Origin: Desulfotalea psychrophila LSv54
GTDB lineage: Bacteria > Desulfobacterota > Desulfobulbia > Desulfobulbales > Desulfocapsaceae
NCBI RefSeq assembly: GCF_000025945.1
Contig: NC_006138.1
Span: 1,740,001-1,772,000 of the forward strand
Length of the DNA stretch: 32,000 nt
Direction of reading: 5' to 3'
Made by a program: the position numbers and the translations under genes. Numbering within the stretch: the stretch's first letter is position 1; each line of letters starts with the position of its first letter. The notes beneath the pieces are model-generated. The model was not told the origin of the DNA. It saw only the letters and a list, made by a program, of their open reading frames with translations, and did no database searches. Positions 5,363-27,849 of the stretch are shown one piece after another.

Positions 5363-6511
5363 TTAACCTGAGCAAATTATTTGTTCAACAACGCCTTGAA
5401 CTGTAATAGTCATTGTCTCTTCTGGTGTGTTATTGATTCTTACGTAGAAACTATTTTTTTTAATTTGTTCAGAGCTATATATTGGTTCGTATCTCATGCA
5501 TATTAGTATTGCTCCTATTAGCTTACGAAGTTTGGATGGTATTGGACCCAATAAAATTTTTTGGTGCTCTGGTTTGAGCTGAGTAGGATTTTCACTTTGA
5601 TAGAATTGTGAGAATGATTCTCGCACAGCTAGGCAATCCTCGTTTTGTCCATATGCTATTGATTTGTAGAGGTGCATTTTGCACGTAATGTTTGGAGAAC
5701 TAATAGGCAAATGCTCGAAAAATTCAAATTTTTCGATAAGGATTTTAAATTTTTTGGATCCATAACTGCTTAGACCATGGAAAAAAAGTAAGTGGATTTC
5801 ATCTGTTGAAAGTTGAGATCTAATGAAGTTGGAATATTGTTTTTTATTTTTTCCCTCTGCGTTAGTTTCTATGAACAAGAGGATTTGGTAGAGGGTTTTG
5901 TGGTAATGCGCTAAAGACGATTCTATCTCTTTGTATCTTGTATTATAACGTTCGATGATATGATTTCTATGGCAGTCGCGGTTTTCTATTTGAAAAGACA
6001 TGATGCGAAGGATCTCTGAGAAACATTTTTTGCGGGTAACGATTTTATTTTCAGAGATTAATTCGAGAGAGGCCACGATGTCGTTGTAAAGACTCATTAG
6101 GTGGAAGAACGTTTTTTCAAAATTGTCTTTTTGTATAGCTTGGTATTGCAGTTCCGCTGTGTCAGCAGCACATTTTTGTGCTACAGCAGATTTAGCCAGT
6201 TCCTTTCTTGTGAGCGTGAGTTCTTCTCTTGAGAGAGCTAGCTCAGTTTGAGATGTTTTGAGTTGTTGGGCTTGGAAGTGAAGGGTTAGCAGTATTGCTA
6301 TAAGTCCAAAAAAGCTGAGGATTGGGCCAAGAGATCCGCCAACAAAATCGCCAAATGCTGACCAGTCTGCTTGTGCTGTGCTAAACCCACTCTGGAAGTG
6401 ATAGAAATATGTACTGGGAACAACAACTAATCCCAAGAGACCCGCTATGCCTATGATAGTCAGGAAGTTTGGTAGATGGTTTTTTGTATCATTTGTGTAG
6501 GTAGGTTTCAT
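5363..6511 (-). CDS. putative abortive-infection membrane protein (putAbiC-like)
   Basis: 382-aa ORF. The N-terminal two-TM region with 'WSAFGDFVGGSLGPILSFFGLIAILLTL' followed by a coiled segment resembles the Pfam putAbiC family (recollection). Confidence 0.55.
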   Translation of the reverse strand: MKPTYTNDTKNHLPNFLTIIGIAGLLGLVVVPSTYFYHFQSGFSTAQADWSAFGDFVGGSLGPILSFFGLIAILLTLHFQAQQLKTSQTELALSREELTLTRKELAKSAVAQKCAADTAELQYQAIQKDNFEKTFFHLMSLYNDIVASLELISENKIVTRKKCFSEILRIMSFQIENRDCHRNHIIERYNTRYKEIESSLAHYHKTLYQILLFIETNAEGKNKKQYSNFIRSQLSTDEIHLLFFHGLSSYGSKKFKILIEKFEFFEHLPISSPNITCKMHLYKSIAYGQNEDCLAVRESFSQFYQSENPTQLKPEHQKILLGPIPSKLRKLIGAILICMRYEPIYSSEQIKKNSFYVRINNTPEETMTITVQGVVEQIICSG

Positions 6512-6546
6512 TCTTTAAGCTCTGGGCAGGTTGATTTGATCTTATG

Positions 6547-8124
6547 CTATGCAGCAGCCAGCCCATCTACGGTTGTCGCTATTTGGTCATCTATGCTTGT
6601 TAGGCCCCTAAGCTCTAGCGACTCTCGGTACTCTCTGGCTTCTGCAGCCAGGGTCCATTTCGTATCTATGCCAAGTTTGCTCGTTAAGTCTTTCACGGAG
6701 GCAATATTAACATTGAAGAATTCTTTTCGTTTGTTAATTTTGTTCACTCTGTATTGGTCAAATTGTCGATGTAGTTCACTTTCTAGGGCGGGAGCATTTT
6801 CACTGAACATTAAAGCATGTACGTCAAATGCAAATGGGACACTGGCATCTCCAAGTTCTTTGACGCGATCCAGTGGTTCTAGGCGTCGAGTGAGGCCAAT
6901 TTTGATAACTTTTTCTCCAAAAGAGCCTTCGTTGGAAATTACGTAAACATGACCTCTTTTGGTTTGTTGGGCCATGGATATGGCTCTCTGATTTTTCTCT
7001 TCTGCTTCTGCAAGCTTCGCTTCAAGCTCTTTTAACTGCATTTCAAATTGTGCTTTTTGCTCTTCTGATGCGTTTCCAAGTTCTTTTCTAGCTTCCGCCA
7101 TTGCCTTTTGAAGCATCTTCTCTTCTTTTTCAGCATCACGAACAGCCTTCTCGTATTCTCGCGCTGCCTTTGCTTCTTCACGTAACTCTTCTTTGATGCG
7201 TTTTTGTTCTTCTCTGTCGCGAAGAGCAAGTTCCTGGGTTGCAACTGCCCATTTTAACTCATCCTGGCGGGCGGCGAGGTATTCTGGGGAAATACGGGCA
7301 TTTCGAAATGCAGATCCATTATTATTTACGAGGCTGAAAGCATCAATAATTTGTTGCTGAAGCTTTCCGTAATTGTCATGTTTTACCTTGGACAGGATGG
7401 TTGCTACCTTCCCATTAAAAGCGTCTAAGACAAAGTTGATAGCCGTTTTTTTTCTATTTTCTTCTGCATAATCGCAGGTCGCAGCATATTCATTCTTAAC
7501 AAAATCTCGAACAAGAACTCTTGCTTCTTTAAGTTTTTCCCCAGCTTCTTTAAAGTCGTATTGGTCAGCAAGTTCATCAAGCAGGCTGTCGGGCGGCATG
7601 AGGTATTCTGCACCATAGCCCTTTATGGTGTTTCGCATGGCCGTGACAGCTTTTTTCAATTGCTTTTCGGTTTGCTTGATAGCATAAGCTTCCCCAGCTA
7701 TTTGTTCGGCTTTTTCTTCTGCAGCAGCAATTACCTTATCAGCTTTTTCCTTCGCTTCTCTTCGTACTCTATCTACCCTTTGTCCTGCTTCCTCTAGTTT
7801 TTCAGTCGCTTTTTTCAAGATTGATTTTGCCTGTACCTTTATACTCAGGGCTTCCTTTTCTACATCAAATATAGGAGCATATTTTTCTAATTCTTTCCTT
7901 GCTTGTTGTAGTTCCTTGGAAATTTCATTTTGCTTTATTGTTTCACTTTTAATCGACGCCTCGGCATCAACTCGTAAATCTTCTTCTTCTGCCAAGGCTT
8001 TGGTAAGGTTTGATATTCGAGAGCTCAAGCCATCGTTGATTGATCTGTTTTTTTTCAATTTTATAAATAGATAGATAGCTACAAAAGGTGAAACGAAAAA
8101 CAGGATACCAAAAAAATATTCCAT
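6547..8124 (-). CDS. DUF4041-type protein with C-terminal T5orf172 (MUG113 / GIY-YIG-like) domain, N-terminal TM anchor and long coiled coil
   Basis: ATG at 8124 lies 8 nt after SD AGAGGAG; the ORF track starts at a GTG at 8133. TM 'YFFGILFFVSPFVAIYLFIKL'. Lys/Glu-rich coiled coils. C-terminus 'GHVYVISNEGSFGEKVIKIGLTRRLEPLDRVKELGDASVPFAFDVHALMFSENAPALESELHRQF' is a T5orf172 signature. Confidence 0.7.
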   Translation of the reverse strand: MEYFFGILFFVSPFVAIYLFIKLKKNRSINDGLSSRISNLTKALAEEEDLRVDAEASIKSETIKQNEISKELQQARKELEKYAPIFDVEKEALSIKVQAKSILKKATEKLEEAGQRVDRVRREAKEKADKVIAAAEEKAEQIAGEAYAIKQTEKQLKKAVTAMRNTIKGYGAEYLMPPDSLLDELADQYDFKEAGEKLKEARVLVRDFVKNEYAATCDYAEENRKKTAINFVLDAFNGKVATILSKVKHDNYGKLQQQIIDAFSLVNNNGSAFRNARISPEYLAARQDELKWAVATQELALRDREEQKRIKEELREEAKAAREYEKAVRDAEKEEKMLQKAMAEARKELGNASEEQKAQFEMQLKELEAKLAEAEEKNQRAISMAQQTKRGHVYVISNEGSFGEKVIKIGLTRRLEPLDRVKELGDASVPFAFDVHALMFSENAPALESELHRQFDQYRVNKINKRKEFFNVNIASVKDLTSKLGIDTKWTLAAEAREYRESLELRGLTSIDDQIATTVDGLAAA

Positions 8125-8160
8125 ATTACCCACTCCTCTTCTTGATCTTGACTTCTGCTT

Positions 8161-8535: not shown

Positions 8536-8592
8536 CCTGCCCTTTTCTGTTAGCTTTTTTTCTTGCTCAAAACCTCTGGCAATACCTTTCTG

Positions 8593-8955: not shown

Positions 8956-9074
8956 CTTTTCCTTTTTTGCAACATAAAAATCACTTGTGTATATTGCTAA
9001 CGTATTGAAAATACGTTTACTATCGCCTGTGCATGTACTACGCTGTCACACTGGGGAAGGCAATAAGTTTTCCT

Positions 9075-9536
9075 CTAACCGAGTTTCTTTTCTTGCCTGT
9101 GCTCTATTCTCTTCGCTTTTAGCCATTCCTTGAACTCTGGACTCTCCTGGGTAAGTTTTGCCTTGAGAAGTGCCCAGTAGTCTAATCCGTCGTCCTGTTC
9201 TTCTATCCACTCGATCAGTTCTTTGTGATGCTCATTGGTAATGCTTGTTGCCGTGCGAGCTTCTGTCTTGAAGTCAAAGTTGATGGCATCGCCTTTGGGT
9301 GGTGTATAGGAATACGGTTCTCCCACCCCAGTTGCCAGCCATTCGATATCGCATTTAAAAAACTCTGCTATTTTTACGAGTGTGGTCCGGTGTGGCGTCC
9401 CAACAAACCCTGATACCCACTTGCTCACCTGGGAAGGGTTCTTGCCAATGGCTCGGGCAAGGTCTTTTTGCTCAATTTTTTTTAAATCTATAAGCATTTG
9501 TAATCGCTTGCAAAACTCTTCCATGTAAGTCACCAC
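9075..9536 (-). CDS. XRE/cI-like phage repressor
   Basis: HTH 'IEQKDLARAIGKNPSQVSKWVSG' near the N-terminus with a C-terminal extension. Divergent from a Ner-like gene. The start may be the ATG at 9524 rather than the GTG at 9536. Confidence 0.75.
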   Translation of the reverse strand: MVTYMEEFCKRLQMLIDLKKIEQKDLARAIGKNPSQVSKWVSGFVGTPHRTTLVKIAEFFKCDIEWLATGVGEPYSYTPPKGDAINFDFKTEARTATSITNEHHKELIEWIEEQDDGLDYWALLKAKLTQESPEFKEWLKAKRIEHRQEKKLG

Positions 9537-9595
9537 ATTCCACTAAGTTCAAATTACTGGTTGTCACCACGTGTCATCTACGCTATCCTGTGTGC

Positions 9596-9790
9596 ATGGA
9601 TAAACAAAAACTCATTCACTTAATTGGTTATGTAACCGGCAAAAATATTCCTGAGTTAGCGGATGAATATGGTTATCCGCCTTCAAGTTTTTACCGCGTC
9701 ATATCGGGACGGGTGAAAAAATCACCCATTAGAAAAATCATATCTGACCTCGTTGATAAACCTATAGATCAGCTTTGGCCAGACAACTAA
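9596..9790 (+). CDS. Ner/Nlp-like small DNA-binding protein (Cro-equivalent)
   Basis: 'ELADEYGYPPSSFYRVISGRVKKSPIRKIISDLVDKPIDQLWPDN' parallels Mu Ner '...FGYAPTTLANALERHWPKGEQIIANALETKPEVIWPSRY'. ATG at 9596 inside ORF 9590..9790. Confidence 0.6.
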   Translation: MDKQKLIHLIGYVTGKNIPELADEYGYPPSSFYRVISGRVKKSPIRKIISDLVDKPIDQLWPDN

Positions 9791-16293: not shown

Positions 16294-16869
16294 ATGACCG
16301 ACACCCCCAGCTGGCAAAACTATACCGAGACAAATAAAAAAGCCGATGTGCTGCGCTATCTGCAGGAGACGGGTTGGCAACTCAGAAAGCAGACCTTCTA
16401 CAACCACTGCGGGGATGGCAAACTCAAAAAAAACAGATCCGGTCTCTACTCAAAACAGGCCGTGAAAAAATATGCCGAAACATGGCTGGTCCATATCGGT
16501 TTGGGCAGCACGGTGGGCGAGGCGGAGGAGAACCTTGCCAAACAGAAGACCAAAAAAGAGATTGACCGGATCACCACCTCGGAACAGCACGAGCGCTTTA
16601 AACTCGATATCCTCCGGGGTAAATATATTGAGCGCTCCAAGGTAGAGCTGGAACTTGCCAGCCGTGCCGTGGTGCTCGATCACGGCCTGGACTATCTGAT
16701 AAAATCCAACGTGGCCGAGATGGTGGCCCTGGTGGGCGGTATGGCCGACAAGACAACCCTGCTGCTTGATTTTCTTCTGAAGAAAAAAGATGCACAGCTC
16801 TCGCACTATGCGAGTATCGATGATTTTACTGTAAACCTGCAAATAGAGAGCGAGGTGGAATCGTGCTGA
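16294..16869 (+). CDS. putative terminase small subunit (by position)
   Basis: 191-aa ORF whose stop overlaps the terL start. Occupies the Nu1 position. No motif recognised. Confidence 0.45.
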   Translation: MTDTPSWQNYTETNKKADVLRYLQETGWQLRKQTFYNHCGDGKLKKNRSGLYSKQAVKKYAETWLVHIGLGSTVGEAEENLAKQKTKKEIDRITTSEQHERFKLDILRGKYIERSKVELELASRAVVLDHGLDYLIKSNVAEMVALVGGMADKTTLLLDFLLKKKDAQLSHYASIDDFTVNLQIESEVESC

Positions 16870-18836
16870 GTCCCCCCAATGTGAAGATGTTCCAGGTGAA
16901 GAATATGTCTTATATCCCGGAGAGTCTGCAGAAGACGGGTTTCTGCCATACCACCTCGTTTTCTAAGGCGGAAAAACGGGTCCTGCGCAAAAAAAAATGG
17001 CAGGCTCCGAGTGAGTGGGCCCCAAAAAACAGGAAAATTGTTAAGGGTCAGCTTGCCGGCAACTATCTCAGCCTTGATATCACCCCCCATCTGCGCGGGA
17101 TCATGGATGCGGCCGTGCTTCCCTTTGTCCGTCGTCTGCATATTATGGCTGCACCGCAGACCGCAAAGACCACCCTGATAGATACCATCATCGCCTGGGC
17201 AACCATCTTTGCCCCTGGTCCTGCGGTCTCCTTTTATCCCGATGAGGTAACGGCCAAGAGATCCATGAAAGAGAGACTGCAGCCCATGGTTGCCGGTTCT
17301 CCCTCTCTGTCCCGTCTGCGTTCGGGCCATCGGGACGATTTCACCAACACCTCCATGGCCCTCTCTTCCATGACCTGGGAGGTGGGTTGGGTAGGTTCAA
17401 CCGCTCAGACCGCCGATAGATCCCTGCGCTATGTGGATATGCAGGAGGTGGATAAACCAAGTTATGGGGGGAGTAAGGAGGAGACCGGCGTGATCGAGCT
17501 GCTGCTGAAACGTCCCAGGGCCTATGGTGATACCTACAAGGTCTTCATCTCATCTTCACCCACCACCGAGGCGGGCAATATTAACATGATCATAGAGAAG
17601 GAGACCGAGGCAGTCTTCCTGCAATGGGTGCGCTGTCCCCACTGTCATGAAGAGGTGCTGATGCTCTTTAGCCACGACACCTTCCACTGGCCCCACGATG
17701 AGGAGGGACACAGTATTGACCGTAAAACGATTCTCAGTAAAAAGCTTGCCCGTTATATCTGCCCCGAATGTGCCGCCCTGTGGGATGATAACGATCGCAA
17801 TAAGGCCATTCGCCGTGATGTCTGGCGCCTGCGAATGGTGGATAATAAGGGCGAGACCCTCTATGAAAAGGGGGAGGAAATGTTTCGCTATCTGCAAAAG
17901 CACCGGCCTGCCTCCATCGGCTTTATCGTCCCCTCCTGGACAAGCTATATGGTCAGCCTCTCCGAGGTGGCCCACGACTTCCTCCGTTCCGTGGATAAAA
18001 ATATCAGTGCCGAAGAACGTCTCAAGGCCCTGAAGGATTTTAAAAACGGCCACGAGGCAAAACCGTGGAAACCGGAGATCGTAGAACGGGCGGAAGCGAG
18101 TCTTCTCCGGCTGAAAAATGATCTCCCCGCAACCGAGGTACCGGCTCAAGGGGTGGCAGGTCTCTTTGCCGGGGTCGATACCCAGGACGATGGTTTCTGG
18201 TACTGGGTCATGGCCGTGGGTTATGGCAGGGCGCCGGAGCGTTGGCTTCTTCGCTGTGGTTTTGTCTTCACCTTCGAGGCCGTGGTTCAGGTGCTCTGGG
18301 GCAATGAGTACAGGGATAAAAATGGCAATATCTATCCCGTTCATCTCTCCCTGCAGGATGCCATGGGCCATAGAACCTCGGATGTCTACGATTTCTGCGC
18401 CTCCCGTCACGGTCAGATACTACCCACCAATGGTCAGCAGACCATGGCCACCCCATACTCCACCAACGATGTCGAGTTTTATCCTGGTAGTGATAAGCGC
18501 AGGTTCCCGGGGGCGCTAAAGAGGGTGCGGGTCAATACCACCTACTATAAGGATAAGGCCGATGGCATTCTCAAGATCAATCCCGGTGATCCCGGGGGCA
18601 TCTCCTTTTATAGCGAGGTCTCCCGGGGAGATCTGCTACAGCTCTGTGCCGAAACACGAAATGAGAAGGGCTTTTGGGAGCAGATCGGGCAAAGAGATAA
18701 CCATCTCTGGGATTGTTTCTGTCTGGCCCTCTGTGCAGAGGATGTGGCCGGTGTCCGCTACTGGCCAACACCGGAAGAGCAGGAAGAGATGAGTGATGAT
18801 TTAGTGGTTGAAGATTATGCCGCAACACTGGGCTAA
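16863..18836 (+). CDS. terminase large subunit, lambda gpA family
   Basis: GTG at 16863 follows SD GAGGTGG. 657 aa. 'MAAPQTAKTT' P-loop-like segment, Zn-ribbon 'CPHCHEEV...CPECAALW', and gpA-like overall length and layout. Confidence 0.85.
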   Translation: MLSPPNVKMFQVKNMSYIPESLQKTGFCHTTSFSKAEKRVLRKKKWQAPSEWAPKNRKIVKGQLAGNYLSLDITPHLRGIMDAAVLPFVRRLHIMAAPQTAKTTLIDTIIAWATIFAPGPAVSFYPDEVTAKRSMKERLQPMVAGSPSLSRLRSGHRDDFTNTSMALSSMTWEVGWVGSTAQTADRSLRYVDMQEVDKPSYGGSKEETGVIELLLKRPRAYGDTYKVFISSSPTTEAGNINMIIEKETEAVFLQWVRCPHCHEEVLMLFSHDTFHWPHDEEGHSIDRKTILSKKLARYICPECAALWDDNDRNKAIRRDVWRLRMVDNKGETLYEKGEEMFRYLQKHRPASIGFIVPSWTSYMVSLSEVAHDFLRSVDKNISAEERLKALKDFKNGHEAKPWKPEIVERAEASLLRLKNDLPATEVPAQGVAGLFAGVDTQDDGFWYWVMAVGYGRAPERWLLRCGFVFTFEAVVQVLWGNEYRDKNGNIYPVHLSLQDAMGHRTSDVYDFCASRHGQILPTNGQQTMATPYSTNDVEFYPGSDKRRFPGALKRVRVNTTYYKDKADGILKINPGDPGGISFYSEVSRGDLLQLCAETRNEKGFWEQIGQRDNHLWDCFCLALCAEDVAGVRYWPTPEEQEEMSDDLVVEDYAATLG

Positions 18837-19049: not shown

Positions 19050-19058
19050 ATTAACTGG

Positions 19059-19078
19059 TTGCGGGGCTGTCTCCGCAA
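19059..19078. terminator. hairpin between convergent genes
   Basis: TTGCGG (19059-19064) pairs with CCGCAA (19073-19078) around an 8-nt loop. No strong T run. Confidence 0.3.
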
Positions 19079-19112
19079 TCCATGTTCAATGACTGGTTAG
19101 AAACCTATTTTA

Positions 19113-20519
19113 CTAAATATCAAGTATCCGCAAGTTGTTTTTATTAATTCTTTCTGACCAGTATTTTGTTATCATTTCGATATGTTGATTTTCTGTAAAA
19201 GGAGTATAACTGGAAATATTCGTCAATTTATGATTTTCCTTTTCTACCATAATACGGTCTATATCTGACCAACGATATGTGTGTTTTTGGTATTCGCATA
19301 AAATTATTTTTCTAACATCATCAAAGATTGAATAGTGAAATTCATCAGTAATCAGCCTGTCTACATTTAATATTTCGCTGAGTATCATTTCTTGTTTTTT
19401 CTTACTGAATGATTTCCAATAAGTTGGGTTGATAAACCAATGATCGCTGCTATGCATCATGAATGTTTCAATAAAACATAAAATGGTGAGTGAGCTTTGG
19501 AAGTAATAATCTATAATATTTTTAAAAAAAATACTATGCACTCTATCAGCATAACAAAAAATATAGGTACAATTTTCCATTGGAATTATATTTGTCATTA
19601 AAAGCATTTTTTTTATACTTTTTTTATTACCATAGGCCAGTGCTGTGTACCCACAAAGAGAAACTGGAAATTTATGGTTAATGCAAATACCATGATTGAT
19701 TGTTGCTCTCTCCTCCTCTATTGTTTGATTATTGTATTCATTTAGTATTTGTTCGGAAAGTCTCTTAAGATAAGCTAGGCGTTTTTCGAAATCCTTTTCC
19801 ATTCCTTGAAAGCTGATCAGTAATTTGTCAATATTTTTGATATTGATTTTTGTTAATTCTTGCTCAATTCCTCGTTGTTTCAACCTATGCCTTAATATGC
19901 CTAATGCTTCTTGCTCGATTGCTGTTCTATATGTTTCTATTTGATTTTGAATTTTATCAATTTCAATATTTAACCATACGATCTCTCTGCAAATAGCCCT
20001 AAAAGTCTGTAACTGAATAAGAGAGTCTTCGTCGATTTCACCATTTTCAATAACTTGGAATATCTGTTCATGTTTTTCACAATATCCAGGAAAAGTTGAT
20101 GCGCTCTTTATACCTACAAGATTCATTGAAACTTTCAAATTTTTCGCAAATATATCAACTACGGGCTGAAGCACATGCCCTTGATCCGCTATATATTTAA
20201 GAGAATTACCTTTAGCAATAGAGTGTGATCTTTTAATACTTAGTGAATTGCAATTCGGATACACGCAACATCTTGGCCTATTTGTTATTTTTCTACTTTT
20301 ATGAGCTAATGATTTTAATAACGGTGCATAGATTTCAAATTGCTGCATCTTAAGAGAATTGTTTGCAATAAGTCGCATGATATTGTCAAATTCTTCACCA
20401 ATAATATCTGTTTCTTTCATTATTTCCGTGGGTGTCGATGTTTTAACATAAACTTCTAACAAGGTGTTATACAGGTCTGTATAACACACAATTTTGCGTA
20501 ATAGGTAGACTGTCGCCAC
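19113..20519 (-). CDS. uncharacterised 468-aa protein with a Cys/His motif region and central coiled coil
   Basis: AT-rich ORF. 'CCVYPNCNSLSIKRSHSIAKGNSLKYIADQGHV' and 'ASTFPGYCEKHEQIFQVIE' are followed by a coiled coil. Start uncertain between GTG 20519 and ATG 20420. Confidence 0.6.
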   Translation of the reverse strand: MATVYLLRKIVCYTDLYNTLLEVYVKTSTPTEIMKETDIIGEEFDNIMRLIANNSLKMQQFEIYAPLLKSLAHKSRKITNRPRCCVYPNCNSLSIKRSHSIAKGNSLKYIADQGHVLQPVVDIFAKNLKVSMNLVGIKSASTFPGYCEKHEQIFQVIENGEIDEDSLIQLQTFRAICREIVWLNIEIDKIQNQIETYRTAIEQEALGILRHRLKQRGIEQELTKINIKNIDKLLISFQGMEKDFEKRLAYLKRLSEQILNEYNNQTIEEERATINHGICINHKFPVSLCGYTALAYGNKKSIKKMLLMTNIIPMENCTYIFCYADRVHSIFFKNIIDYYFQSSLTILCFIETFMMHSSDHWFINPTYWKSFSKKKQEMILSEILNVDRLITDEFHYSIFDDVRKIILCEYQKHTYRWSDIDRIMVEKENHKLTNISSYTPFTENQHIEMITKYWSERINKNNLRILDI

Positions 20520-20640
20520 TCCACCCTCTGTAAAACTCTAACTGAGGTGATACATAAAAAAATGTTAAGCACAAGGGGTAAGCTGCTAGAGTCGCACGTA
20601 ATATGCAAAAAAAATAAGTTGTGGAGAGATGATCCACCCC
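20519..20640. repeat. copy A of a ~122-bp block shared with 25777-25900
   Basis: Hand alignment shows identical cores TCTAACTGAGGTGATACA, ACACAAGG, TAAGCTnCTAGAGTCGCACGnAATAT and ATGATCCAnCCCC. On the minus strand it contains TTGTGC-N16-TATCAC (20547-20574) and the SD of the 468-aa gene. Confidence 0.75.
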
Positions 20641-20790
20641 GATCAGTTCAGTAAACTCCTCAAGGAAAAGGGGATCAACGTCCAGAAGGTGGGCGGGGTT
20701 GTCTACCTCTGTGGCTACACCCTCTCAGGCGAGTTTCTGGAGTCGGTTGGGAAAGGGGTGTGGGGCAGGTGGTTTGCCTGCTCCGCATAA
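20629..20790 (+). CDS. small GC-rich ORF (53 aa), phage-like composition
   Basis: Hand translation gives MIHPDQFSKLLKEKGINVQKVGGVVYLCGYTLSGEFLESVGKGVWGRWFACSA. Its first 12 nt lie inside repeat copy A. Copy B keeps only a 9-codon stub. Confidence 0.3.
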   Translation: MIHPDQFSKLLKEKGINVQKVGGVVYLCGYTLSGEFLESVGKGVWGRWFACSA

Positions 20791-20934
20791 AAAAGATTCT
20801 TTGGCGTGTTTCTGTAGATGCGTAAAGCTAAGCTCACTGGCGGCTTTAATGAAAGTGGATTAACGATGAATCTTTATTGAAATTTTGGAAAAAGCTCCCT
20901 TGGACGCCCATTGCCGTCCGTGTGTATGCTGTCG

Positions 20935-21639
20935 TTAAGTGCCAGATATTGTATGGTAAATGATTTCTGAGGTTAGCTTGTTAAATTCTAAACAAGTGTC
21001 TCTGTCAACATTATCGTCATATCTTCTAAATAAACGCTCTCCTTCATCCAAAGACAATTTTTTTCCACCATATATTAATGGAACAATATAATACTCTGTA
21101 ATCTGTTCATCAAAAGCATTTTTATAACGGACTTTTAGATAACGTCTCAAATTGATAAAACAACTTTCATCGTTTTTCTGGCAGATCCCACTATATTGCT
21201 CATCAAGTTGAGACAGTTGAAGATTATTGTTTTTTCCAAAAATGGTTGCAAGTAACCCACTCCCTTTTGCCGTCATGTAACCTGCACGATAATAACCAAT
21301 TAGAGAGTAAGTTTTTTTCTTTTGCACATTTGGTGTTTTAGATAACTCAATATCTATAAGAACTAATGAATTATAGTGAAAATCAGAGATTATAAAACCA
21401 TTGTTCTCAATGAATATTTTATCCTCTGAATATATACCAGGTATATCATCCTTTAGTTGTTTTGCAGAAATAGTAAAAACAGGTGATATTTGTTTTTTTG
21501 CAATTTTGGTTTGGACATTTAGCAATTTTGTCTGTTCTTTTGAAATTGAACATTGGCTAAATGAAACTAATATCGCCATAATTGCCAATACAGTAGCTGT
21601 CACCGTTTGAAGGTAGAATTTCACATTTTCTTTGTTCAT
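20935..21639 (-). CDS. hypothetical N-terminally anchored membrane protein, partner of the KAP NTPase
   Basis: 234-aa ORF, 75 nt downstream of the KAP gene on the same strand. TM 'LQTVTATVLAIMAILVSF'. No family recognised. Confidence 0.6.
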   Translation of the reverse strand: MNKENVKFYLQTVTATVLAIMAILVSFSQCSISKEQTKLLNVQTKIAKKQISPVFTISAKQLKDDIPGIYSEDKIFIENNGFIISDFHYNSLVLIDIELSKTPNVQKKKTYSLIGYYRAGYMTAKGSGLLATIFGKNNNLQLSQLDEQYSGICQKNDESCFINLRRYLKVRYKNAFDEQITEYYIVPLIYGGKKLSLDEGERLFRRYDDNVDRDTCLEFNKLTSEIIYHTISGT

Positions 21640-21714
21640 ATTTTTTATACTTAATGCCGTGCTCTGTGGTAAATTTGTAGTGCAGCGGGAAATTTGTCCG
21701 ACAGCAGTGCTTTG

Positions 21715-24000
21715 TTAGATTTGTGGCCAATCATCTTCGATGCCTTTTTCTCTTTGTTTTAAGGCAGCTGTGAAAAGTTTTATTGCTTCTTTGCCTTGTG
21801 CATCCATTTTTTGTTCATCGATATTACTTATTGCACTGGCAATTGGTTCGACTTCGATAAAGTTTTCTATGTCTTTCAGCTTTATATAGCTAGTAATTTT
21901 TGCTACAGAATCTTCCATTGTTTGAGAAGAAGAGTTATTAACGAATCCTTTAAGCAAATTGACACATCCATCTGCGTTTGCTGTCTGGGCTTTTAGCCAC
22001 GCAACGACCTTGTCTTCCTCCCCCCAGCGTTTCCATCTGTATAGGAAAGAAACTAGATGCTCATGTGTTATAAGCATCTCTGGATTAGTTTCAGACATAC
22101 GGTCCAATTTATGTACGAATTCTTGTTTGATCTCCTCAAATTCGTTATCCAGCAACAGAATTTTTGTTTCCGAATTCTCTCGACTATTTTCATCATGTTG
22201 TAAAATGTTCTCAACAATAGAAATACCATCTGAATTTTGGAAGCATCTCAACAATAATTGACCCCTTTCTTTACTATTGTCAACTCTCCGAAGGAAACAA
22301 ACAGCTAATTGTACTGCATGCATATTGGAGCTGGACATGGTAAAACCCATATATTTATGGTCGACTTTATCGCCTATATCAATTAGTGCTTTGATATAAC
22401 TGTAGCCATCTCCTAAAGGGATCTCATCAGTAAATGATTCAAATTGAGATAGAGCATTTTTTAGTATCCCACGTTCCATTAACAATAGAATAAATGATGA
22501 AAAACTCTCAGAGTCCGATGTGCGCGAAAGCATGTCTCTAAGATCTGAATTAGAAAGCTCACCTTTGGGAATTGAAAACTGAAAGTATTTATTGAAATTT
22601 GAGGGATGACATACTCGCATCTCTCGTAACCATCTCTTGCTAAAACAATCGGCATATTGTCTGCCATTAAGAGCCCATTCAATTGCAGGAAATAGCTGCT
22701 TTATCAGTTCTCTTACATGTTCTCTTTTATTTGTACTTGCCTTATCTAAAATTCCATTGATCAGAGAAGTTATAGCTTCCCTACTTTTTTTATCCCCGCT
22801 ATAACTACTTTTCGTAAATATATCTTTTGACCGGGCTATTTCTTTATATATTTCAGGTTCAAATATTCTTATACATTCAATTGCTATAAGATCGACGGGG
22901 TTAACCTCAAATACAGATTTACCCTTCAATAACGAAAAATGAAATGAAAGTGTTGATGTATAACGATACACGTTCCTCAAATTGTCGAAGTAAGCATGTA
23001 ATGCCCCACGAAAAATATTGCCCCAGCGCCCAGAATCAAACATTTCTGCTGCAGATTTATCTTGTTTAATAACTTGATCAATTCTACTGAACAACAAATC
23101 ATGAAGGAGTGTAACTTCAATTTTTGGAATATCAAAAGGGACTTGTATGATTTTTTCTAAATAGTCACGACCTAACTGTTTACCATCAGTTAATTTCTCT
23201 TCTACTAAATCACGCTGGAAAAGAAGAAGAAAAACCACTTTAGGAAACTCAAGGTTTGCCTTAACAAGCTGAAATACCATTCTTAGTTGGCCGGGCGTAA
23301 GTCGATCCAAATCATCCATAACTACAATCAATGATGATGCTCTTTCTGACAATAGAGATGTTAGCTCTTGTCTAATGTCACTTAAGCTTTGCTCCTTTTC
23401 TTTTGCTGTTGCCTCAGCATTACCACTAAGTTTGTTTAGTAGTCCTTTTCCCCACTTGAGGGCTGCTGCCCAAGCTGCCAATAGGCCTAAAATAGCTGTG
23501 CTAACCGTTTTTACCCAAGATTCACCAGAGAAGTTCCCCCCAACCCCTACCAGGGTAGCTAAAATAAATAGTGTTGGTAGAGCCGCTGAGAGGCCTGTAA
23601 CTAGAGATTCTCCAGTATTTAAGTATCTGCCATACTTTTTAAGCGTTGCGGACAGTTTTTTTCCTGACTTACTTTTATCTATTCGACCTATTGATTTTGA
23701 TATTTCTTGAAAAAACGAAGCTGTAATTTTATCTTGAGCTGCCCATTCCCAAGGAGAAAACTCGACAACATCCGGTCTGTTCTCAGTTAGGCTTTTTAGG
23801 TTAGCTACAGCCATATTTTTAATGGATGATTTTCCTGACCCCCAATCACCATGTAGGGCAACGACAAGACTGTCTTTTCCATGCCATCCAGCGATTGCAT
23901 CTGCCAAATCTTTAGAAAATTTGGATCGGCCTAGTAAATCTTCTTTTATTTTTAGGATTGGTCTATCGGAAGCAAATCCATGTACGTCTTGTGAATCCAT
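21715..24000 (-). CDS. KAP-family P-loop NTPase with two TM segments inserted in the NTPase domain
   Basis: Walker A 'LHGDWGSGKSSIKNM'. Hydrophobic inserts 'LSAALPTLFILATLVGVGG' and 'VSTAILGLLAAWAAAL'. Walker B 'LIVVMDDLDRLTPGQ', then 'YLEKIIQVPFDIP'. Long helical C-terminal region. Confidence 0.85.
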   Translation of the reverse strand: MDSQDVHGFASDRPILKIKEDLLGRSKFSKDLADAIAGWHGKDSLVVALHGDWGSGKSSIKNMAVANLKSLTENRPDVVEFSPWEWAAQDKITASFFQEISKSIGRIDKSKSGKKLSATLKKYGRYLNTGESLVTGLSAALPTLFILATLVGVGGNFSGESWVKTVSTAILGLLAAWAAALKWGKGLLNKLSGNAEATAKEKEQSLSDIRQELTSLLSERASSLIVVMDDLDRLTPGQLRMVFQLVKANLEFPKVVFLLLFQRDLVEEKLTDGKQLGRDYLEKIIQVPFDIPKIEVTLLHDLLFSRIDQVIKQDKSAAEMFDSGRWGNIFRGALHAYFDNLRNVYRYTSTLSFHFSLLKGKSVFEVNPVDLIAIECIRIFEPEIYKEIARSKDIFTKSSYSGDKKSREAITSLINGILDKASTNKREHVRELIKQLFPAIEWALNGRQYADCFSKRWLREMRVCHPSNFNKYFQFSIPKGELSNSDLRDMLSRTSDSESFSSFILLLMERGILKNALSQFESFTDEIPLGDGYSYIKALIDIGDKVDHKYMGFTMSSSNMHAVQLAVCFLRRVDNSKERGQLLLRCFQNSDGISIVENILQHDENSRENSETKILLLDNEFEEIKQEFVHKLDRMSETNPEMLITHEHLVSFLYRWKRWGEEDKVVAWLKAQTANADGCVNLLKGFVNNSSSQTMEDSVAKITSYIKLKDIENFIEVEPIASAISNIDEQKMDAQGKEAIKLFTAALKQREKGIEDDWPQI

Positions 24001-24032
24001 ACGATCTCTCTGAAGAATCTACGTTAAGTTCA

Positions 24033-24052
24033 CCAGCGAGCCCCAGCGAGCC
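24033..24052. repeat. tandem 10-mer CCAGCGAGCC x2
   Basis: Read directly. A GC-rich patch in the AT-rich upstream region of the KAP gene, next to the tRNA fragment. Confidence 0.6.
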
Positions 24053-24110
24053 CAGTGGAGTGAAACGGAGCGGTGTTAAAGGCCTTGTTAACTGATTGTA
24101 TTATGTTATT

Positions 24111-24138
24111 TGGGGAAAAGGGGAGGAATCGAACCTCC
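24111..24138 (-). other. tRNA 3'-end fragment (T arm + acceptor 3' strand + CCA); att-site-like remnant
   Basis: Minus strand reads GGAGG-TTCGATT-CCTCC-CCTTTTC-C-CCA. This is a 5-bp T stem, canonical 7-nt T loop, 7-nt acceptor strand, discriminator and CCA. No matching 5' acceptor strand (GAAAAGG) or D arm lies upstream. Confidence 0.5.
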
Positions 24139-24616
24139 CTGCGCTCTCTTTTGACTGATACTATATTTTAAGGTCCATCTATCTCTCATCTAGGTTGGAA
24201 AAATAGTCGTCAGACCTCTCCAGGAGCGCATTTCCAAACCAAGCGTATGCCATTTTAGAAAACCAACTAGCGTTTGCGTTTTTCATAATCACCTCAATTG
24301 CACAAGAAAAAACGTATGAAAGCAACCATTCCAACCCAAACAAGATTCCAATTTCCCATCCAATAAGTATCTTTGACGTCAAACTCTAATTATTTATCAA
24401 TCTATTTTGAATACGTTCTATACCTTTTTGGTGGTGATACCAATTTGTTGTTTAGTAAAATTACTGCTCTATAAAAGTTCTAAAAAATTTATCATGTATT
24501 TCGGTTGTTTTGAAAATACTATTGCTTTACGACTTAGCCTTATTTGCAACTTAAAATCCTGTAACTCAATGTTGCCGAGAGGCCGACAATTTTATATGTA
24601 TCCATGTCAGAACCTT

Positions 24617-24640
24617 AAAAAAGAGCACATTAAGTGTGCT
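24617..24640 (-). terminator. rho-independent terminator of the DUF3800-like gene
   Basis: On the minus strand, AGCACA-CTTAA-TGTGCT is followed by CTTTTTT. It begins 19 nt after the stop codon. Confidence 0.5.
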
Positions 24641-24658
24641 ACTTGGCACAGTGCTTTG

Positions 24659-25768
24659 TTAATCAATTTTACCAGCACGCATCGGAGCCATTAGATCCTT
24701 GAGACCTACTTCACAGTCCAACATATCATATTTTCCAGCAAGTCCGACATAAATGCTCTCACGCATATCATTTACCTTTTTTAAGTACGGCATGGTTTTC
24801 TGCGCAACAAATCCAACAAATTTTTCAAGGTCAGAGACAGAGCTAGGAATTTTATATCCATCTCGTGAGGCAGAAATTAACGCGCCATTATTTCGTAATT
24901 TTGCAATTACATTTGATCTTAGCCATCCCTTGTCTTTATTCAGTTCAATTAGACCTTCATTCTTTAGATGCTCAAGCAATGCATCACCGTATATAAATCC
25001 ATCATCTTCATCGCCAACAGAATACAGTAAATACTGTAGTGTTTCTGCTAATACACGATCTTTTTCTCTTGCCAATACTTCTTCGGCAGCATGAGTGCAA
25101 TGACGAAAGACCAGCTGATCTTCAATGCTGGTATCTACGTCAATATGGGGATCTTCTTTGGCCCTTGGCCACACGTGTACCATCCCCAATGCGGGCTTTA
25201 ATGTATCGAATGCAGATGAATCTTCCTGTTTTTCCATAAACCGACGTACCGTACCTCCAACAAAATCTGCCACCTGCAATAATTCTGACTCTATTGGTGT
25301 TGAATACTTTATTTCACGACTTGAGAACAAGTCTTGCTGAAAATGCTTGTTGATATATGGCGCGAAAGAATCCATGAAATCCTGAGAACCGTGGGTGTCA
25401 ACAACCACAATGACCTGGCTTATGCCCTTATAAATCTTTTCAAACAACCTGCGCTGACAATGCTTATAGGTTGATGATTTAAATCTAAAACCACCATTTT
25501 TGTGAAGCCGGCTCTTCATAATTATCATCACAACAAAACGAGCTCTTAATTGGCCTAGGCTTTCACATATATCTTTTCGTCGCTTTAGATTTGAACCAAC
25601 TTTTGATGACTTTAATTCTTTTCCCACGCCATGTTTATTGCGGATTTCACGAAGCAATGCGCTATCATGATCAAGGTCATTTTCGTCGTTAATTACCGCA
25701 CAGATGACATAGCAATCATCATTCAGGACTGGATCGCCCGATTCATCAATATGTATTCGTTTTCGCAT
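24659..25768 (-). CDS. DUF3800-family protein with a C-terminal wHTH-like extension
   Basis: ATG at 25768 lies 8 nt after SD GGAG; the ORF track extends to 25861. N-terminus 'MRKRIHIDESGDP' is the DUF3800 signature, with a later 'VVVDTHGS'. The C-terminal ~100 aa are rich in a helix/turn pattern. Confidence 0.7.
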   Translation of the reverse strand: MRKRIHIDESGDPVLNDDCYVICAVINDENDLDHDSALLREIRNKHGVGKELKSSKVGSNLKRRKDICESLGQLRARFVVMIIMKSRLHKNGGFRFKSSTYKHCQRRLFEKIYKGISQVIVVVDTHGSQDFMDSFAPYINKHFQQDLFSSREIKYSTPIESELLQVADFVGGTVRRFMEKQEDSSAFDTLKPALGMVHVWPRAKEDPHIDVDTSIEDQLVFRHCTHAAEEVLAREKDRVLAETLQYLLYSVGDEDDGFIYGDALLEHLKNEGLIELNKDKGWLRSNVIAKLRNNGALISASRDGYKIPSSVSDLEKFVGFVAQKTMPYLKKVNDMRESIYVGLAGKYDMLDCEVGLKDLMAPMRAGKID

Positions 25769-25776
25769 ATCATTTT

Positions 25777-25900
25777 CTCCACTTTCTGTAATGTCTCTAA
25801 CTGAGGTGATACACAAATATCTTGCTAAACACAAGGAATAAGCTACTAGAGTCGCACGCAATATACAGAAAGTAACTTATAAAGAAATGATCCATCCCCC
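25777..25900. repeat. copy B of the ~122-bp block shared with 20519-20640
   Basis: See copy A. On the minus strand it contains TTGTGT-N17-TATCAC (25806-25834) and the SD of the DUF3800 gene. The plus-strand end carries the stub ATGATCCATCCCCCTCTTGGTAGCATGTAG. Confidence 0.75.
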
Positions 25901-26096
25901 TCTTGGTAGCATGTAGCAAGTTCTCCTCACCCTGTTTCAAAACCCCCCCAAACGAAACACCTGTCAATAATCTTTAATAGCACGTACACGGCCATAGACG
26001 GCCATAAACGCGCATACACGTCTGGCGCCTAAAACAGGGTGTACTATCTCCGTATAAGTTTTGAGCTTTTTTAATAACCTCTGCGGAGAGAATCTC

Positions 26097-26330
26097 GTGG
26101 CCCCTATTGTCTGTAGTTTAGAAGAGTACCAAGCAGCACGTACAGCCAGAACCCGTCTGATAGAGGGCGCCAGGGCGGTGCGAGTGACCATCGACGGTGA
26201 CAGCACCGAGTTTACTCAGGTGAGTCTGCCCCAGCTCAACGAGACCATTGCCGGAATGCAGGCATACCAGAACTTGACCAGTGGTAATGGTGTGGTGGCC
26301 TTCAATATTCACGGCTGCAAGGGCTTCTGA
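26097..26330 (+). CDS. gpW-like head-tail joining protein
   Basis: GTG at 26097 lies 7 nt after SD GGAGAG. About 77 aa. 'LEEYQAARTARTRLIEGARAVRVTIDGDSTEFTQVSLPQLNETIAGMQ' fits the gpW pattern, and the gene sits immediately before the portal gene. Confidence 0.6.
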   Translation: MAPIVCSLEEYQAARTARTRLIEGARAVRVTIDGDSTEFTQVSLPQLNETIAGMQAYQNLTSGNGVVAFNIHGCKGF

Positions 26331-26331
26331 T

Positions 26332-27849
26332 ATGGGATCAATCGTCGATATGCACGGCAGACCCTTTGCCCAGGCCAGTTCCTCCGGAGGTTTTGGCCCT
26401 CTCTATGAGGGGGCATCCACCGCTGATCGGATCGGTACCTGGGGGCTTTCACCGGCTGGGCCCAACGTTGGCCAGAACGGGATCATTGCCATCAAGAAAC
26501 GCTCCCGCCAGAGCGAGCGCAATAATCCCACTGCCAACGGGGCCATCGATGCCTTTGTCTCCAACCTTGTCGGTACTGCCATCTCTCCTGCCTGGCAAAT
26601 TGATAATTTATTGCAAAAGGAGGAGCTGGAATCCCTCTGGCAGGACTCCCAGAAACAGCTTGATTATGTGGGCTTCACCGACTTCTACGGACAGCTTGAG
26701 CTTATCTGCCGCTCCATGGTGCGTGATGGTGAAGGTCTTGCCGTGATCCATGAGTTGCAACCCTCCCTTGATAATATTGTCCCCATTCAGATCCAGCCCC
26801 TGGAGTCTGACCACCTCGACCCCAACTTCAACGATATTTCGCCCGAAGGAAACGAGATCCGTTTCGCCATCGAGTGGAAGGCGGGTAAACGCTATCGCTA
26901 CTGGCTCTATGACAACCATCCGGGCGAGGTCTTTCTCTGCGCGGATAATATCAGACGAATTCCTGTGCCAGCGGCAGATGTTCTCCATGTCTTCCGTCTG
27001 AAAAGGGCAGGGCAGTGTCGTGGCAGTGGTTGGCTCGGTTCTGTGATCACCAAGCTTCATGACATTGATGTCTATGACGATGCCGAGCTTGTCCGGAAGA
27101 AAGCGGCCGCCCTCTGGGGTGGTTTCATCTATCAGGATAATCAGGTGGCATCTACTTCCAGTAATCCCTTTGGTGGCACCCCTGGGGCCAGATCAAACGG
27201 CGTGCAGAGCATTGAGCTGAAGGCGGGCCATTTTCCCGTATTGCGAGATGGAATGAAGATCGCCTTCTCCGAGTCGGCCGATGTGGGCAACAACTATAAA
27301 GAGTTTATGAAGACTCAGTTTCGCCTCATTGCCCGGGGCATTGGCATCACCTATGAGCAACTCACCGGCGATCTGGAAGGGGTGACCTATAGCTCTATCC
27401 GCTCCGGCCTCATCGAATTTCGCAGACTCTGTGAAACCATTATCGCCCGTACCCTGGTCTTTCAGTACTGCCGACCCATCGTCGATCGTTGGATTCGTGC
27501 TGCCATCCTCAACGGTTGTCTCAAGACCATCACCCCTGGTGAGTATCTTGCCAATCCCCGTCTCTTTCATCGGGTTGATTGGCATCCCCATGGTTGGGAT
27601 TTCACCGATCCAGTCAAGGACCGAGTGGCTGAGCTGATGGATATCAGAAGCGGGATCAAGAGTCGTCGGCAGGTGGTGGCCAAACGTAATGGCAGTGTTG
27701 AGGTGGTGGATCGTGAGAACCGCGAAGACCTGCAACGTGCCGTGGATAATGGCCTTGTCTACGATTGCTATCCCGGCCAGACCACGGGCAGTGGTGCGAT
27801 TCAAAAGGTAAGCGAACAAGTAATTCTACAATCCCTGGAGACAAAATGA
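26332..27849 (+). CDS. portal protein, lambda gpB family
   Basis: ATG at 26332 directly after the gpW stop. About 505 aa. Lies between gpW and the S49 protease, with motif-rich similarity to lambda-family portals (recollection). Confidence 0.85.
   Translation: MGSIVDMHGRPFAQASSSGGFGPLYEGASTADRIGTWGLSPAGPNVGQNGIIAIKKRSRQSERNNPTANGAIDAFVSNLVGTAISPAWQIDNLLQKEELESLWQDSQKQLDYVGFTDFYGQLELICRSMVRDGEGLAVIHELQPSLDNIVPIQIQPLESDHLDPNFNDISPEGNEIRFAIEWKAGKRYRYWLYDNHPGEVFLCADNIRRIPVPAADVLHVFRLKRAGQCRGSGWLGSVITKLHDIDVYDDAELVRKKAAALWGGFIYQDNQVASTSSNPFGGTPGARSNGVQSIELKAGHFPVLRDGMKIAFSESADVGNNYKEFMKTQFRLIARGIGITYEQLTGDLEGVTYSSIRSGLIEFRRLCETIIARTLVFQYCRPIVDRWIRAAILNGCLKTITPGEYLANPRLFHRVDWHPHGWDFTDPVKDRVAELMDIRSGIKSRRQVVAKRNGSVEVVDRENREDLQRAVDNGLVYDCYPGQTTGSGAIQKVSEQVILQSLETK

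What the first reader, a model, noticed from the sequence alone, without database searches (positions are those of the whole stretch)
20935..24000. Candidate two-gene system: TM-inserted KAP NTPase with a dedicated membrane partner
The 761-aa protein has the KAP hallmark of two hydrophobic helices inserted between Walker A ('GDWGSGKSS') and Walker B ('VVMDDLDR'), as in the original description of the family (Aravind et al., 2004). It also has a long helical C-terminal region that could be a sensor. A 234-aa N-terminally anchored protein of unknown family lies 75 nt downstream. The pairing sits inside a prophage cargo island and is flanked by a tRNA-fragment scar, which suggests a self-contained mobile module. 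One plausible model is an NTP-driven membrane sensor or effector acting in abortive infection or exclusion. KAP NTPases remain functionally obscure in bacteria.
Basis: partly seen in the sequence, partly recalled or inferred. Interest (0 to 1): 0.75.

Follow-up and report, generated by a model that had tools for sequence, protein, structure and literature searches.

The report
PifA-like phage-exclusion NTPase, chance neighbour
The large gene is a membrane-anchored relative of PifA, a long-known single-gene phage-exclusion protein, carried as prophage cargo, and the small membrane gene beside it belongs to an unrelated, uncharacterised family found next to it only in this genome, so this is not a two-gene system.

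Summary
The sequence features are real. There is a 761-aa KAP P-loop NTPase (21715-24000, minus strand) with two hydrophobic helices between Walker A and Walker B. A 234-aa N-terminally anchored protein follows after 75 nt. Both lie in a low-GC cargo island of a prophage, and a tRNA 3'-end fragment sits upstream.

The two-gene interpretation fails. The NTPase is an end-to-end homologue of F-plasmid PifA (PADLOC PifA E=2.6e-82; profile-profile probability 99.7% over 660 columns). It belongs to a large, mobile subfamily (66-77% identity in Vibrio, Aeromonas, Shewanella and others). Across about 20 independent contexts this subfamily has no conserved neighbour.

The 234-aa protein is not an orphan. 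It belongs to an unannotated family of about 620 clusters with a confidently predicted fold that matches no solved structure. None of 9 other family contexts holds a KAP gene, and none of 25 KAP loci holds a family member.

So the pairing is a one-off adjacency in a defence-cargo hotspot. The NTPase is best read as a standalone PifA-like abortive-infection or exclusion gene. That makes it a new member of a known kind, of modest interest.

Residual novelty: this subfamily keeps the TM hairpin that F PifA lacks, and the small-protein family is unexplored.

The parts
21715..24000 (-). 761-aa KAP P-loop NTPase, a PifA-like subfamily member with a TM hairpin
   Evidence: ORF. Pfam KAP_NTPase 1.6e-38. 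PADLOC PifA 2.6e-82 covering 4-711 of 720 profile positions. hhalign against F-type PifA: 99.7%, 660 columns.
23827..23850 (-). Walker A, GDWGSGKS (residues 51-58)
   Evidence: Motif search. Invariant G51, W53, G54, G56 and K57 in the 23-sequence alignment.
23449..23613 (-). Two hydrophobic helices (residues 130-159 and 162-184) inserted in the P-loop domain
   Evidence: Hydropathy scan. Hydrophobic segment(s) at this position in all subfamily homologues examined (two separate segments in most); absent from F-type PifA (maximum 1.27).
23302..23328 (-). Walker B, IVVMDDLDR (residues 225-233)
   Evidence: Motif search. D229, D230, D232 and R233 invariant.
21640..21714 (-). 75-nt spacer between the two genes, with no terminator-like hairpin
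20935..21639 (-). 234-aa single-pass membrane protein of an unannotated family. It is a neighbour, not a conserved partner.
   Evidence: 621 clusters in the exhaustive profile search. AF2 pLDDT 96.4: a long N-terminal helix followed by a beta-sandwich. No fold match in PDB. No Pfam, PHROG or PADLOC match.
24111..24139 (-). tRNA 3'-end fragment (T arm, acceptor 3' strand, CCA), a junction scar upstream of the KAP gene
   Evidence: Not found in any other locus.
19050..25928 (.). Low-GC cargo island in a prophage hotspot between the terminase/HTH genes and the portal gene. Four antisense genes.
   Evidence: GC profile. Flanking genes. Related viral contigs L061/L062 carry different cargo at the same site, and homology resumes at window position 25929.
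20515..20640 (.). Copy A of a roughly 125-nt direct repeat (about 85% identity), upstream of the 468-aa gene
25775..25900 (.). Copy B of the same direct repeat, upstream of the DUF3800 gene
24659..25861 (-). DUF3800 protein (weak PADLOC PDC-M04A match), a separate cargo gene followed by its own terminator-like hairpin at 24640-24624
19113..20519 (-). 468-aa protein with no family, a separate cargo gene

Best explanation
The 761-aa protein is a standalone PifA-family KAP P-loop NTPase. It is carried as defence cargo in a variable hotspot of a lambda-like prophage of Desulfotalea psychrophila. By analogy with F-plasmid PifA, it most likely sits at the inner membrane, here anchored by the two-helix hairpin inserted in its NTPase domain. 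It would sense a protein of an infecting phage through its long C-terminal region. NTP binding or hydrolysis would then trigger a membrane permeability or energy lesion that aborts the infection. The 234-aa gene is an independent cargo gene from a different, widespread, uncharacterised family of single-pass membrane proteins. It happens to lie downstream, possibly on the same transcript, but it is not a co-evolving partner. Shown here: domain identity, end-to-end homology to PifA, conservation of the TM hairpin, lack of any conserved neighbour, and the hotspot context. Inferred: the defence phenotype, the trigger, and the membrane lesion.
For: PADLOC PifA matches at E=2.6e-82 (275 bits) and spans residues 8-739, against 54 bits or less for QatA and PDC-S20. 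The subfamily profile aligns to F-type PifA (the gene next to pifC in L014) with probability 99.7%, E=4e-26, over 660 columns from the N to the C terminus. BLASTP gives 25% identity over residues 12-385 plus a colinear C-terminal segment. Hydrophobic segment(s) at the hairpin position occur in every subfamily member examined (two in most) but not in F PifA. The subfamily is large and horizontally mobile: 636 hits at E<1e-20, and 66-77% identity across Vibrio, Aeromonas, Pseudoalteromonas, Shewanella, Colwellia and a Synechococcus MAG. No neighbour is shared among independent contexts. One plasmid copy is bracketed by IS3 and IS256 next to an anti-phage dCTP deaminase. Other copies sit by Patatin/SRAP or TIR-TPR genes. 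The 234-aa family occurs without KAP in 9 other contexts. The same prophage hotspot holds different cargo in relatives. From the literature: PifA aborts T7 infection through membrane depolarisation and nucleotide leakage triggered by gp1.2 and gp10 (PMC8594841, PMC13001434), and single-protein KAP NTPases need Walker B and the C-terminal region to defend (PMC13552941).
Against: Identity to F PifA is only about 25% and the profile score is far below that of true PifA (275 against 963 bits), so the function may have diverged. F PifA lacks the TM hairpin, so the membrane mechanism may differ. No pifC-like repressor is present. The two genes are 75 nt apart on one strand with no terminator between them, so co-expression and a local functional link cannot be excluded. 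The subfamily is absent from 50,697 sequenced phage genomes. No phenotype data exist for any member of this subfamily. The BASEL authors question whether defence is even PifA's primary role (PMC8594841).
Confidence: 0.7

Rival explanations
1. One reading: the KAP NTPase and the 234-aa membrane protein form a dedicated, co-inherited two-gene defence module.
For: Same strand, 75-nt gap, no terminator-like hairpin between them. Both are predicted membrane proteins. Both have similarly low GC3 (0.29 and 0.24).
Against: None of 25 KAP-homologue loci with enough downstream sequence holds a relative of the 234-aa protein, even at family-profile sensitivity. None of 9 other family contexts has a KAP gene. 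The closest plasmid homologue (70% identity) is followed by an unrelated 186-aa protein.
Confidence: 0.04
2. Modular-partner model: TM-hairpin PifA-like NTPases work with interchangeable, non-homologous small membrane proteins encoded just downstream. In this genome the 234-aa protein fills that slot.
For: In 11 independent contexts with a same-strand gene within 200 nt downstream, 5 of those genes encode predicted TM proteins (67-279 aa, 1-5 TM segments). A sixth (L028) has a weaker N-terminal hydrophobic segment. The gaps are uniformly short, 47-139 nt.
Against: The enrichment is not significant: 5/11 against 40/173 background ORFs, one-sided Fisher p=0.10, and weaker once the window itself is excluded. 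About half of the contexts have a soluble or convergent downstream gene or an IS element. The ORF calls are mechanical and some may not be genes.
Confidence: 0.1
3. The NTPase is not primarily an anti-phage protein. It serves another membrane-associated role for the mobile element, such as maintenance, signalling or a lysis-lysogeny function, as has been suggested for PifA and RexAB.
For: F PifA has a very narrow target range, and the BASEL authors suggest it may not have evolved as immunity (PMC8594841). No phenotype is known for this subfamily.
Against: Homologues repeatedly sit among recognised defence genes: dCTP deaminase, TIR, Patatin, and in this window PD-Lambda-1, AbiP-like and PDC-S20. 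They are carried by unrelated mobile elements with no conserved neighbour. Diverse single-protein KAP NTPases were shown to defend (PMC13552941).
Confidence: 0.14

Closest known systems
PifA of the F plasmid (pif locus; PADLOC PDLC02361), an abortive-infection protein acting against T7
   Same: A KAP P-loop NTPase of similar length (741 against 761 aa). It is homologous from end to end, including the C-terminal helical region. It acts as a single effector gene, is carried on a mobile element, and is membrane-associated according to the literature.
   Different: About 25% identity. The window protein and its subfamily keep two hydrophobic helices inside the NTPase domain that F PifA lacks. There is no pifC repressor upstream. 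The carrier is a prophage in a deltaproteobacterium-type host rather than an IncF plasmid. The trigger is unknown.
Single-protein KAP NTPase defences such as EF_KAP (PMC13552941, 2026)
   Same: A KAP NTPase domain with TM helices, fused to a C-terminal region of unknown function of about 300-400 aa. In those proteins both Walker B and the C-terminal region are required for defence.
   Different: Those proteins come from Firmicutes and gut metagenomes and have other C-terminal regions. EF_KAP was reported not to act by abortive infection. Direct homology to them was not tested here.
QatA of QatABCD, and PADLOC candidate PDC-S20
   Same: They share the KAP-type P-loop domain (weak PADLOC matches, 48-54 bits).
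   Different: Only the NTPase domain matches. No QatB, QatC or QatD is in the island. A true PDC-S20 gene lies elsewhere in the window (3785..5233, E=2.4e-99) and is a different protein.
Tmn (YobI-family TM P-loop NTPase; PMC13001434)
   Same: Two TM helices inserted in the P-loop domain, a single-gene membrane defence, and sensing of a phage protein.
   Different: A different family: the Pfam YobI-ATPase match scores 17 bits, below the cut-off of 27. Tmn lacks a long C-terminal domain and acts by Mg2+ export and plasmolysis, not by a permeability lesion.

Membership tests
KAP family P-loop NTPases (Pfam PF07693; Aravind et al. 2004) | Match to the KAP_NTPase domain model above the curated cut-off | tested here: met
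   133.1 bits against a cut-off of 20, residues 25-354, profile positions 1-289 of 293. All 23 aligned subfamily members match.
KAP family P-loop NTPases (Pfam PF07693; Aravind et al. 2004) | Intact Walker A and Walker B motifs | tested here: met
   GDWGSGKS at residue 51 and IVVMDDLDR at residue 225. The key residues are invariant in the alignment.
KAP family P-loop NTPases (Pfam PF07693; Aravind et al. 2004) | Transmembrane helices inserted within the NTPase domain | tested here: met
   Two hydrophobic segments, 130-159 and 162-184, between Walker A and Walker B, conserved across the subfamily. This rests on hydropathy only; membrane insertion is not testable here.
PifA (F-plasmid pif abortive infection; PADLOC PifA) | Full-length match to the PifA profile that beats the other KAP-type models | tested here: met
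   E=2.6e-82, 275 bits, profile positions 4-711 of 720. The next best model, QatA, scores 54 bits. True F-type PifA scores 963 bits, so this is a distant member.
PifA (F-plasmid pif abortive infection; PADLOC PifA) | Colinear homology of the C-terminal, non-NTPase region with F PifA | tested here: met
   hhalign 99.7%, 660 aligned columns, query 20-749 against PifA 14-734. BLASTP also finds a colinear C-terminal HSP, 652-683 against 649-680.
PifA (F-plasmid pif abortive infection; PADLOC PifA) | pifC repressor gene upstream (the F pif operon layout; as I recall, DefenseFinder's Pif definition also lists PifC) | tested here: not met
   tblastn of PifC (L014 2872-3960) finds nothing in the window or in any subfamily locus.
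PifA (F-plasmid pif abortive infection; PADLOC PifA) | Exclusion of a phage through a membrane permeability lesion triggered by specific phage proteins | not testable with these tools
   Needs phage challenge and membrane assays. The literature basis is PMC8594841 and PMC13001434.
QatABCD | QatA-type NTPase accompanied by QatB, QatC (QueC-like) and QatD genes | tested here: not met
   Only weak NTPase-domain matches to QatA. None of the three neighbouring island proteins matches QatB, QatC or QatD.
Tmn / YobI-like NTPases | Match to the YobI-ATPase model above its cut-off | tested here: not met
   17.3 bits against a cut-off of 27.
   0 of 25 KAP loci by tblastn at E<=1. 0 of the same loci by family HMM, apart from a 9-bit, E=0.16 match to a TM-only 67-aa ORF.
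   0 of 9 other independent contexts. The KAP profile hits none of those loci.

The most novel reading that the evidence does not exclude
TM-hairpin PifA-like NTPases might act through interchangeable small membrane proteins encoded just downstream. In this prophage, a member of the uncharacterised 234-aa family (a long TM helix plus a beta-sandwich, matching no solved fold) would have been recruited as that membrane effector or modulator. That would make the locus a modular sensor-effector pair rather than a one-gene Abi.
Probability: 0.08. Interest if true: 0.6.

Novelty: new member of a known kind. Interest (0 to 1): 0.3.

Why it matters
The result takes a tempting 'new two-gene system' off the candidate list and files the NTPase under PifA, a system known since the 1980s whose mechanism is still unresolved. 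Two things remain useful. First, this widespread marine and aquatic subfamily keeps the intramembrane hairpin that F PifA has lost. It may therefore be a better model for how KAP NTPases couple nucleotide hydrolysis to a membrane lesion. Second, the neighbouring 234-aa protein reveals an unannotated family of about 620 clusters with a confident predicted fold that matches no solved structure. The family recurs in variable and mobile regions and could be tested on its own for exclusion or defence.

Tried and rejected
(1) Megablast of the island against E. coli genomes found nothing. The host was identified instead through an exact protein match to Desulfotalea psychrophila.

(2) The word-indexed protein search suggested the 234-aa protein was almost an orphan, with 3 hits. 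The exhaustive profile search overturned that, finding 621 clusters.

(3) The first AF2 model, from 3 sequences, had pLDDT 58 and its Foldseek hits (MHC-like, TM-score about 0.15) were meaningless. The 94-sequence model reached pLDDT 96.4. It still has no convincing PDB match: the best TM-score is 0.28, to Kir-channel and Ig-like domains. Two uncharacterised phage proteins in BFVD match at TM-score 0.38-0.39.

(4) A weak Pfam match to Bacterial Death-like domain 2 in the KAP C-terminal region (E=0.023) was rejected. It is below the cut-off and appears in only 2 of 23 subfamily members.

(5) No solved structure is related to the NTPase by sequence.

(6) ARAGORN and Rfam found no tRNA. The fragment was found only by reading the upstream sequence.

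(7) Enrichment of TM proteins downstream of KAP homologues was tested and is not significant.

(8) The subfamily has no match in 50,697 phage genomes. 'Common phage moron' was therefore rejected in favour of general mobile defence cargo.
Full report
**1. What is in the sequence**

The two ORFs are as reported: 21715..24000 (-) encodes 761 aa and 20935..21639 (-) encodes 234 aa, with 75 nt between them. An exact protein match identifies the source as the Desulfotalea psychrophila chromosome.

The large protein matches Pfam KAP_NTPase (E=1.6e-38, residues 25-354). Walker A (GDWGSGKS) starts at residue 51 and Walker B (IVVMDDLDR) at residue 225. Between them lie two hydrophobic segments, 130-159 and 162-184.

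The small protein has one N-terminal hydrophobic segment. It has no Pfam, PHROG or PADLOC match.

**2. Setting**

The genes lie in a low-GC block (gene GC 0.31-0.40, GC3 0.24-0.33) inside DNA of GC about 0.54.
- To the left are a GpA-type large terminase (16863..18836) and a 67-aa HTH gene.
- To the right are a lambda-family portal (26281..27849), an S49 head protease and an E-type major capsid protein.

So the island interrupts the head-gene block of a lambda-like prophage. All four of its genes (468 aa, 234 aa, 761 aa, and a DUF3800 protein of about 370-400 aa) run antisense to the phage genes.

Related viral contigs show that this site is a cargo hotspot. L061 and L062 (portal 63%, terminase 43%, HTH 52% identity) carry a different low-GC insert at the same place, with a single antisense 958-aa ORF of no known family. 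Homology to the window resumes at position 25929.

The island itself looks composite, on four grounds:
- A roughly 125-nt direct repeat (about 85% identity) precedes both the 468-aa gene and the DUF3800 gene.
- A 294-nt stretch of GC 0.50 separates the 468-aa gene from the 234-aa gene.
- The DUF3800 gene is followed by a terminator-like hairpin.
- A tRNA 3'-end fragment (T arm GGGAG-GTTCGATTC-CTCCC, then CTTTTCC-CCA) lies at 24111-24139, 111 nt upstream of the KAP start. Only 0.01 such matches are expected by chance.

ARAGORN and Rfam miss it because only the 3' part is present. It is not found at any other KAP locus.

**3. Identity of the NTPase**

PADLOC's PifA model matches over the whole length (E=2.6e-82, residues 8-739, profile positions 4-711 of 720). 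The other KAP-type models, QatA and PDC-S20, reach at most 54 bits.

I took the PifA gene that lies next to pifC on an IncF plasmid (L014) for direct comparison:
- BLASTP gives 25% identity over residues 12-385, plus a colinear C-terminal segment.
- A profile of 23 subfamily members aligns to F-type PifA with probability 99.7% and E=4e-26, over 660 columns from end to end.

The protein is therefore a distant but full-length member of the PifA family.

It differs from F PifA in one clear respect. All subfamily members carry hydrophobic segment(s) at the hairpin position (two separate ones in most), whereas F-type PifA has no segment above threshold. This agrees with the published statement that PifA lacks TM helices (PMC13001434). 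No pifC homologue is present.

The subfamily is large and mobile. There are 636 hits at E<1e-20, with 66-77% identity in Vibrio, Aeromonas, Pseudoalteromonas, Shewanella, Colwellia, Vogesella and a Synechococcus MAG. Members also occur on conjugative plasmids.

**4. Is the 234-aa protein a dedicated partner? No**

From the KAP side:
- I collected loci from genomes, metagenomes, one viral contig and plasmids.
- Among 25 loci with a full-length homologue and at least 775 nt downstream, tblastn with the 234-aa protein finds nothing at E<=1.
- A family HMM finds nothing either, apart from a 9-bit, E=0.16 match to a 67-aa TM-only ORF.
- Clustering of all flanking ORFs shows no family shared among independent contexts. 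Shared neighbours occur only among copies of the same genomic region.
- The closest plasmid homologue (70% identity) is followed by an unrelated 186-aa protein.
- A Vibrio nigripulchritudo plasmid copy is bracketed by IS3 and IS256 elements beside an anti-phage dCTP deaminase.

From the side of the small protein:
- The indexed search found only two relatives.
- The exhaustive profile search found 621 clusters at E<=1e-3, of which 293 are at E<=1e-10. They are mostly 230-290 aa.
- Nine other independent contexts were examined. They lie after a TIR gene and a 180-aa gene; after two further different upstream genes on short contigs; among IS elements; after Ogr/Delta and SEC-C genes of a P2-like element; between ruvA and gidA; beside a tRNA-Val and an HNH gene; near AbiE; and near an integrase.
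- None of these contains a KAP gene.

The adjacency in this window is therefore unique.

**5. What the small protein is**

With a 94-sequence alignment, AlphaFold2 gives pLDDT 96.4 and pTM 0.86. The model has a single 48-residue N-terminal helix, whose first half is the membrane anchor, followed by a beta-sandwich packed with three helices.

Foldseek finds no convincing PDB match; the best TM-score is 0.28. Two uncharacterised phage proteins of similar size match at TM-score 0.38-0.39.

The family has no Pfam, PHROG or PADLOC model. Its function is unknown. Its scattered occurrence in variable regions and prophages would fit an independent accessory gene, possibly one for exclusion. That is inference only.

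**6. Most likely mechanism**

This section is inference from the family. F PifA aborts T7 infection when it senses gp1.2 and the capsid protein gp10, causing membrane depolarisation and nucleotide leakage (PMC8594841, PMC13001434). Single-protein KAP NTPases from other bacteria defend against phages and require both Walker B and the C-terminal region (PMC13552941).

I therefore propose that the 761-aa protein is a hairpin-anchored inner-membrane NTPase whose C-terminal region senses a phage component, and that nucleotide-dependent switching then produces a membrane or energy lesion. The domain architecture and homology are shown here. The trigger, the lesion and the phenotype are not.

**7. 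Rival explanations**

- A conserved two-gene system is rejected (section 4).
- In a looser 'modular partner' model, non-homologous small TM proteins would follow the NTPase. I tested this. Of 11 same-strand downstream genes within 200 nt, 5 have TM segments, against 40 of 173 background ORFs. The one-sided Fisher test gives p=0.10, which is not significant. I keep this as the low-probability novel reading.
- A non-defence role cannot be excluded without experiments. However, the genomic company of the homologues (dCTP deaminase, TIR-TPR, Patatin) and of this gene argues for defence.

**8. Verdict**

The headline claim of a dedicated membrane partner is not supported, and the NTPase already falls under a named system. 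This is a new member of a known kind, and interest is modest.

Noticed in passing
window 2655-9536 (minus strand, GC 0.35-0.43): A second cluster of defence-type genes. A 482-aa KAP-like NTPase matches PADLOC candidate PDC-S20 (3785..5233, E=2.4e-99). Next to it are an AbiP-like protein (5363..6511, E=5e-11) and a PD-Lambda-1 homologue (6547..8133, E=3.5e-111). The window therefore holds two different KAP-type NTPases.
   Followed up: partly
window 19050-25928; L061/L062 about 6300-9600: The gap between the terminase/HTH genes and the portal gene is a cargo hotspot in this phage lineage. Relatives carry a different low-GC insert there, with one antisense 958-aa ORF that has no Pfam or PADLOC family.
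   Followed up: partly
window 20515-20640 and 25775-25900: A roughly 125-nt direct repeat (about 85% identity, 5260 nt apart) lies just upstream of the 468-aa gene and the DUF3800 gene. It could be a shared promoter or leader, or a recombination site of the cargo cassettes. It has no Rfam match.
   Followed up: partly
window 20935-21639; alignment A5; model m0c9f66b6bf7a: The 234-aa protein defines an unannotated family (621 clusters at 50% identity) with a very confident predicted structure: a 48-residue TM helix plus a beta-sandwich. The fold matches nothing in the PDB and the family is absent from Pfam, PHROGs and PADLOC. Only P53 is invariant; Q43, N79, G81, Y116, N138, Y172 and G200 are nearly invariant.
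   Followed up: yes
window 20641-20934: A 294-nt stretch of backbone-like GC (0.50) lies inside the low-GC island, with a 53-aa plus-strand ORF (20629..20790). It may be a remnant of phage backbone separating two independent insertions. It has no match in the related viral contigs.
   Followed up: partly
window 24659-25861; L015 8272-9032: A DUF3800 gene lies immediately upstream of the PifA-like gene here. Another DUF3800 gene lies about 2 kb from true pifA on a Klebsiella-type virulence plasmid. This may be a coincidence or a recurrent co-occurrence.
   Followed up: no
window 19113-20519 (minus strand): A 468-aa cargo protein with no Pfam, PHROG or PADLOC family, preceded by the direct repeat. 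It is an unexplored candidate defence gene in the same hotspot.
   Followed up: no
L002 123-5709: The closest homologue of the 234-aa protein sits in a block of candidate defence genes: a TIR_2 protein, a 180-aa protein, a 376-aa membrane protein, a Cys-rich 244-aa protein, and a partial ORF that looks like a dCTP deaminase by eye only (not searched against any library). Its neighbours differ in every other context examined.
   Followed up: partly
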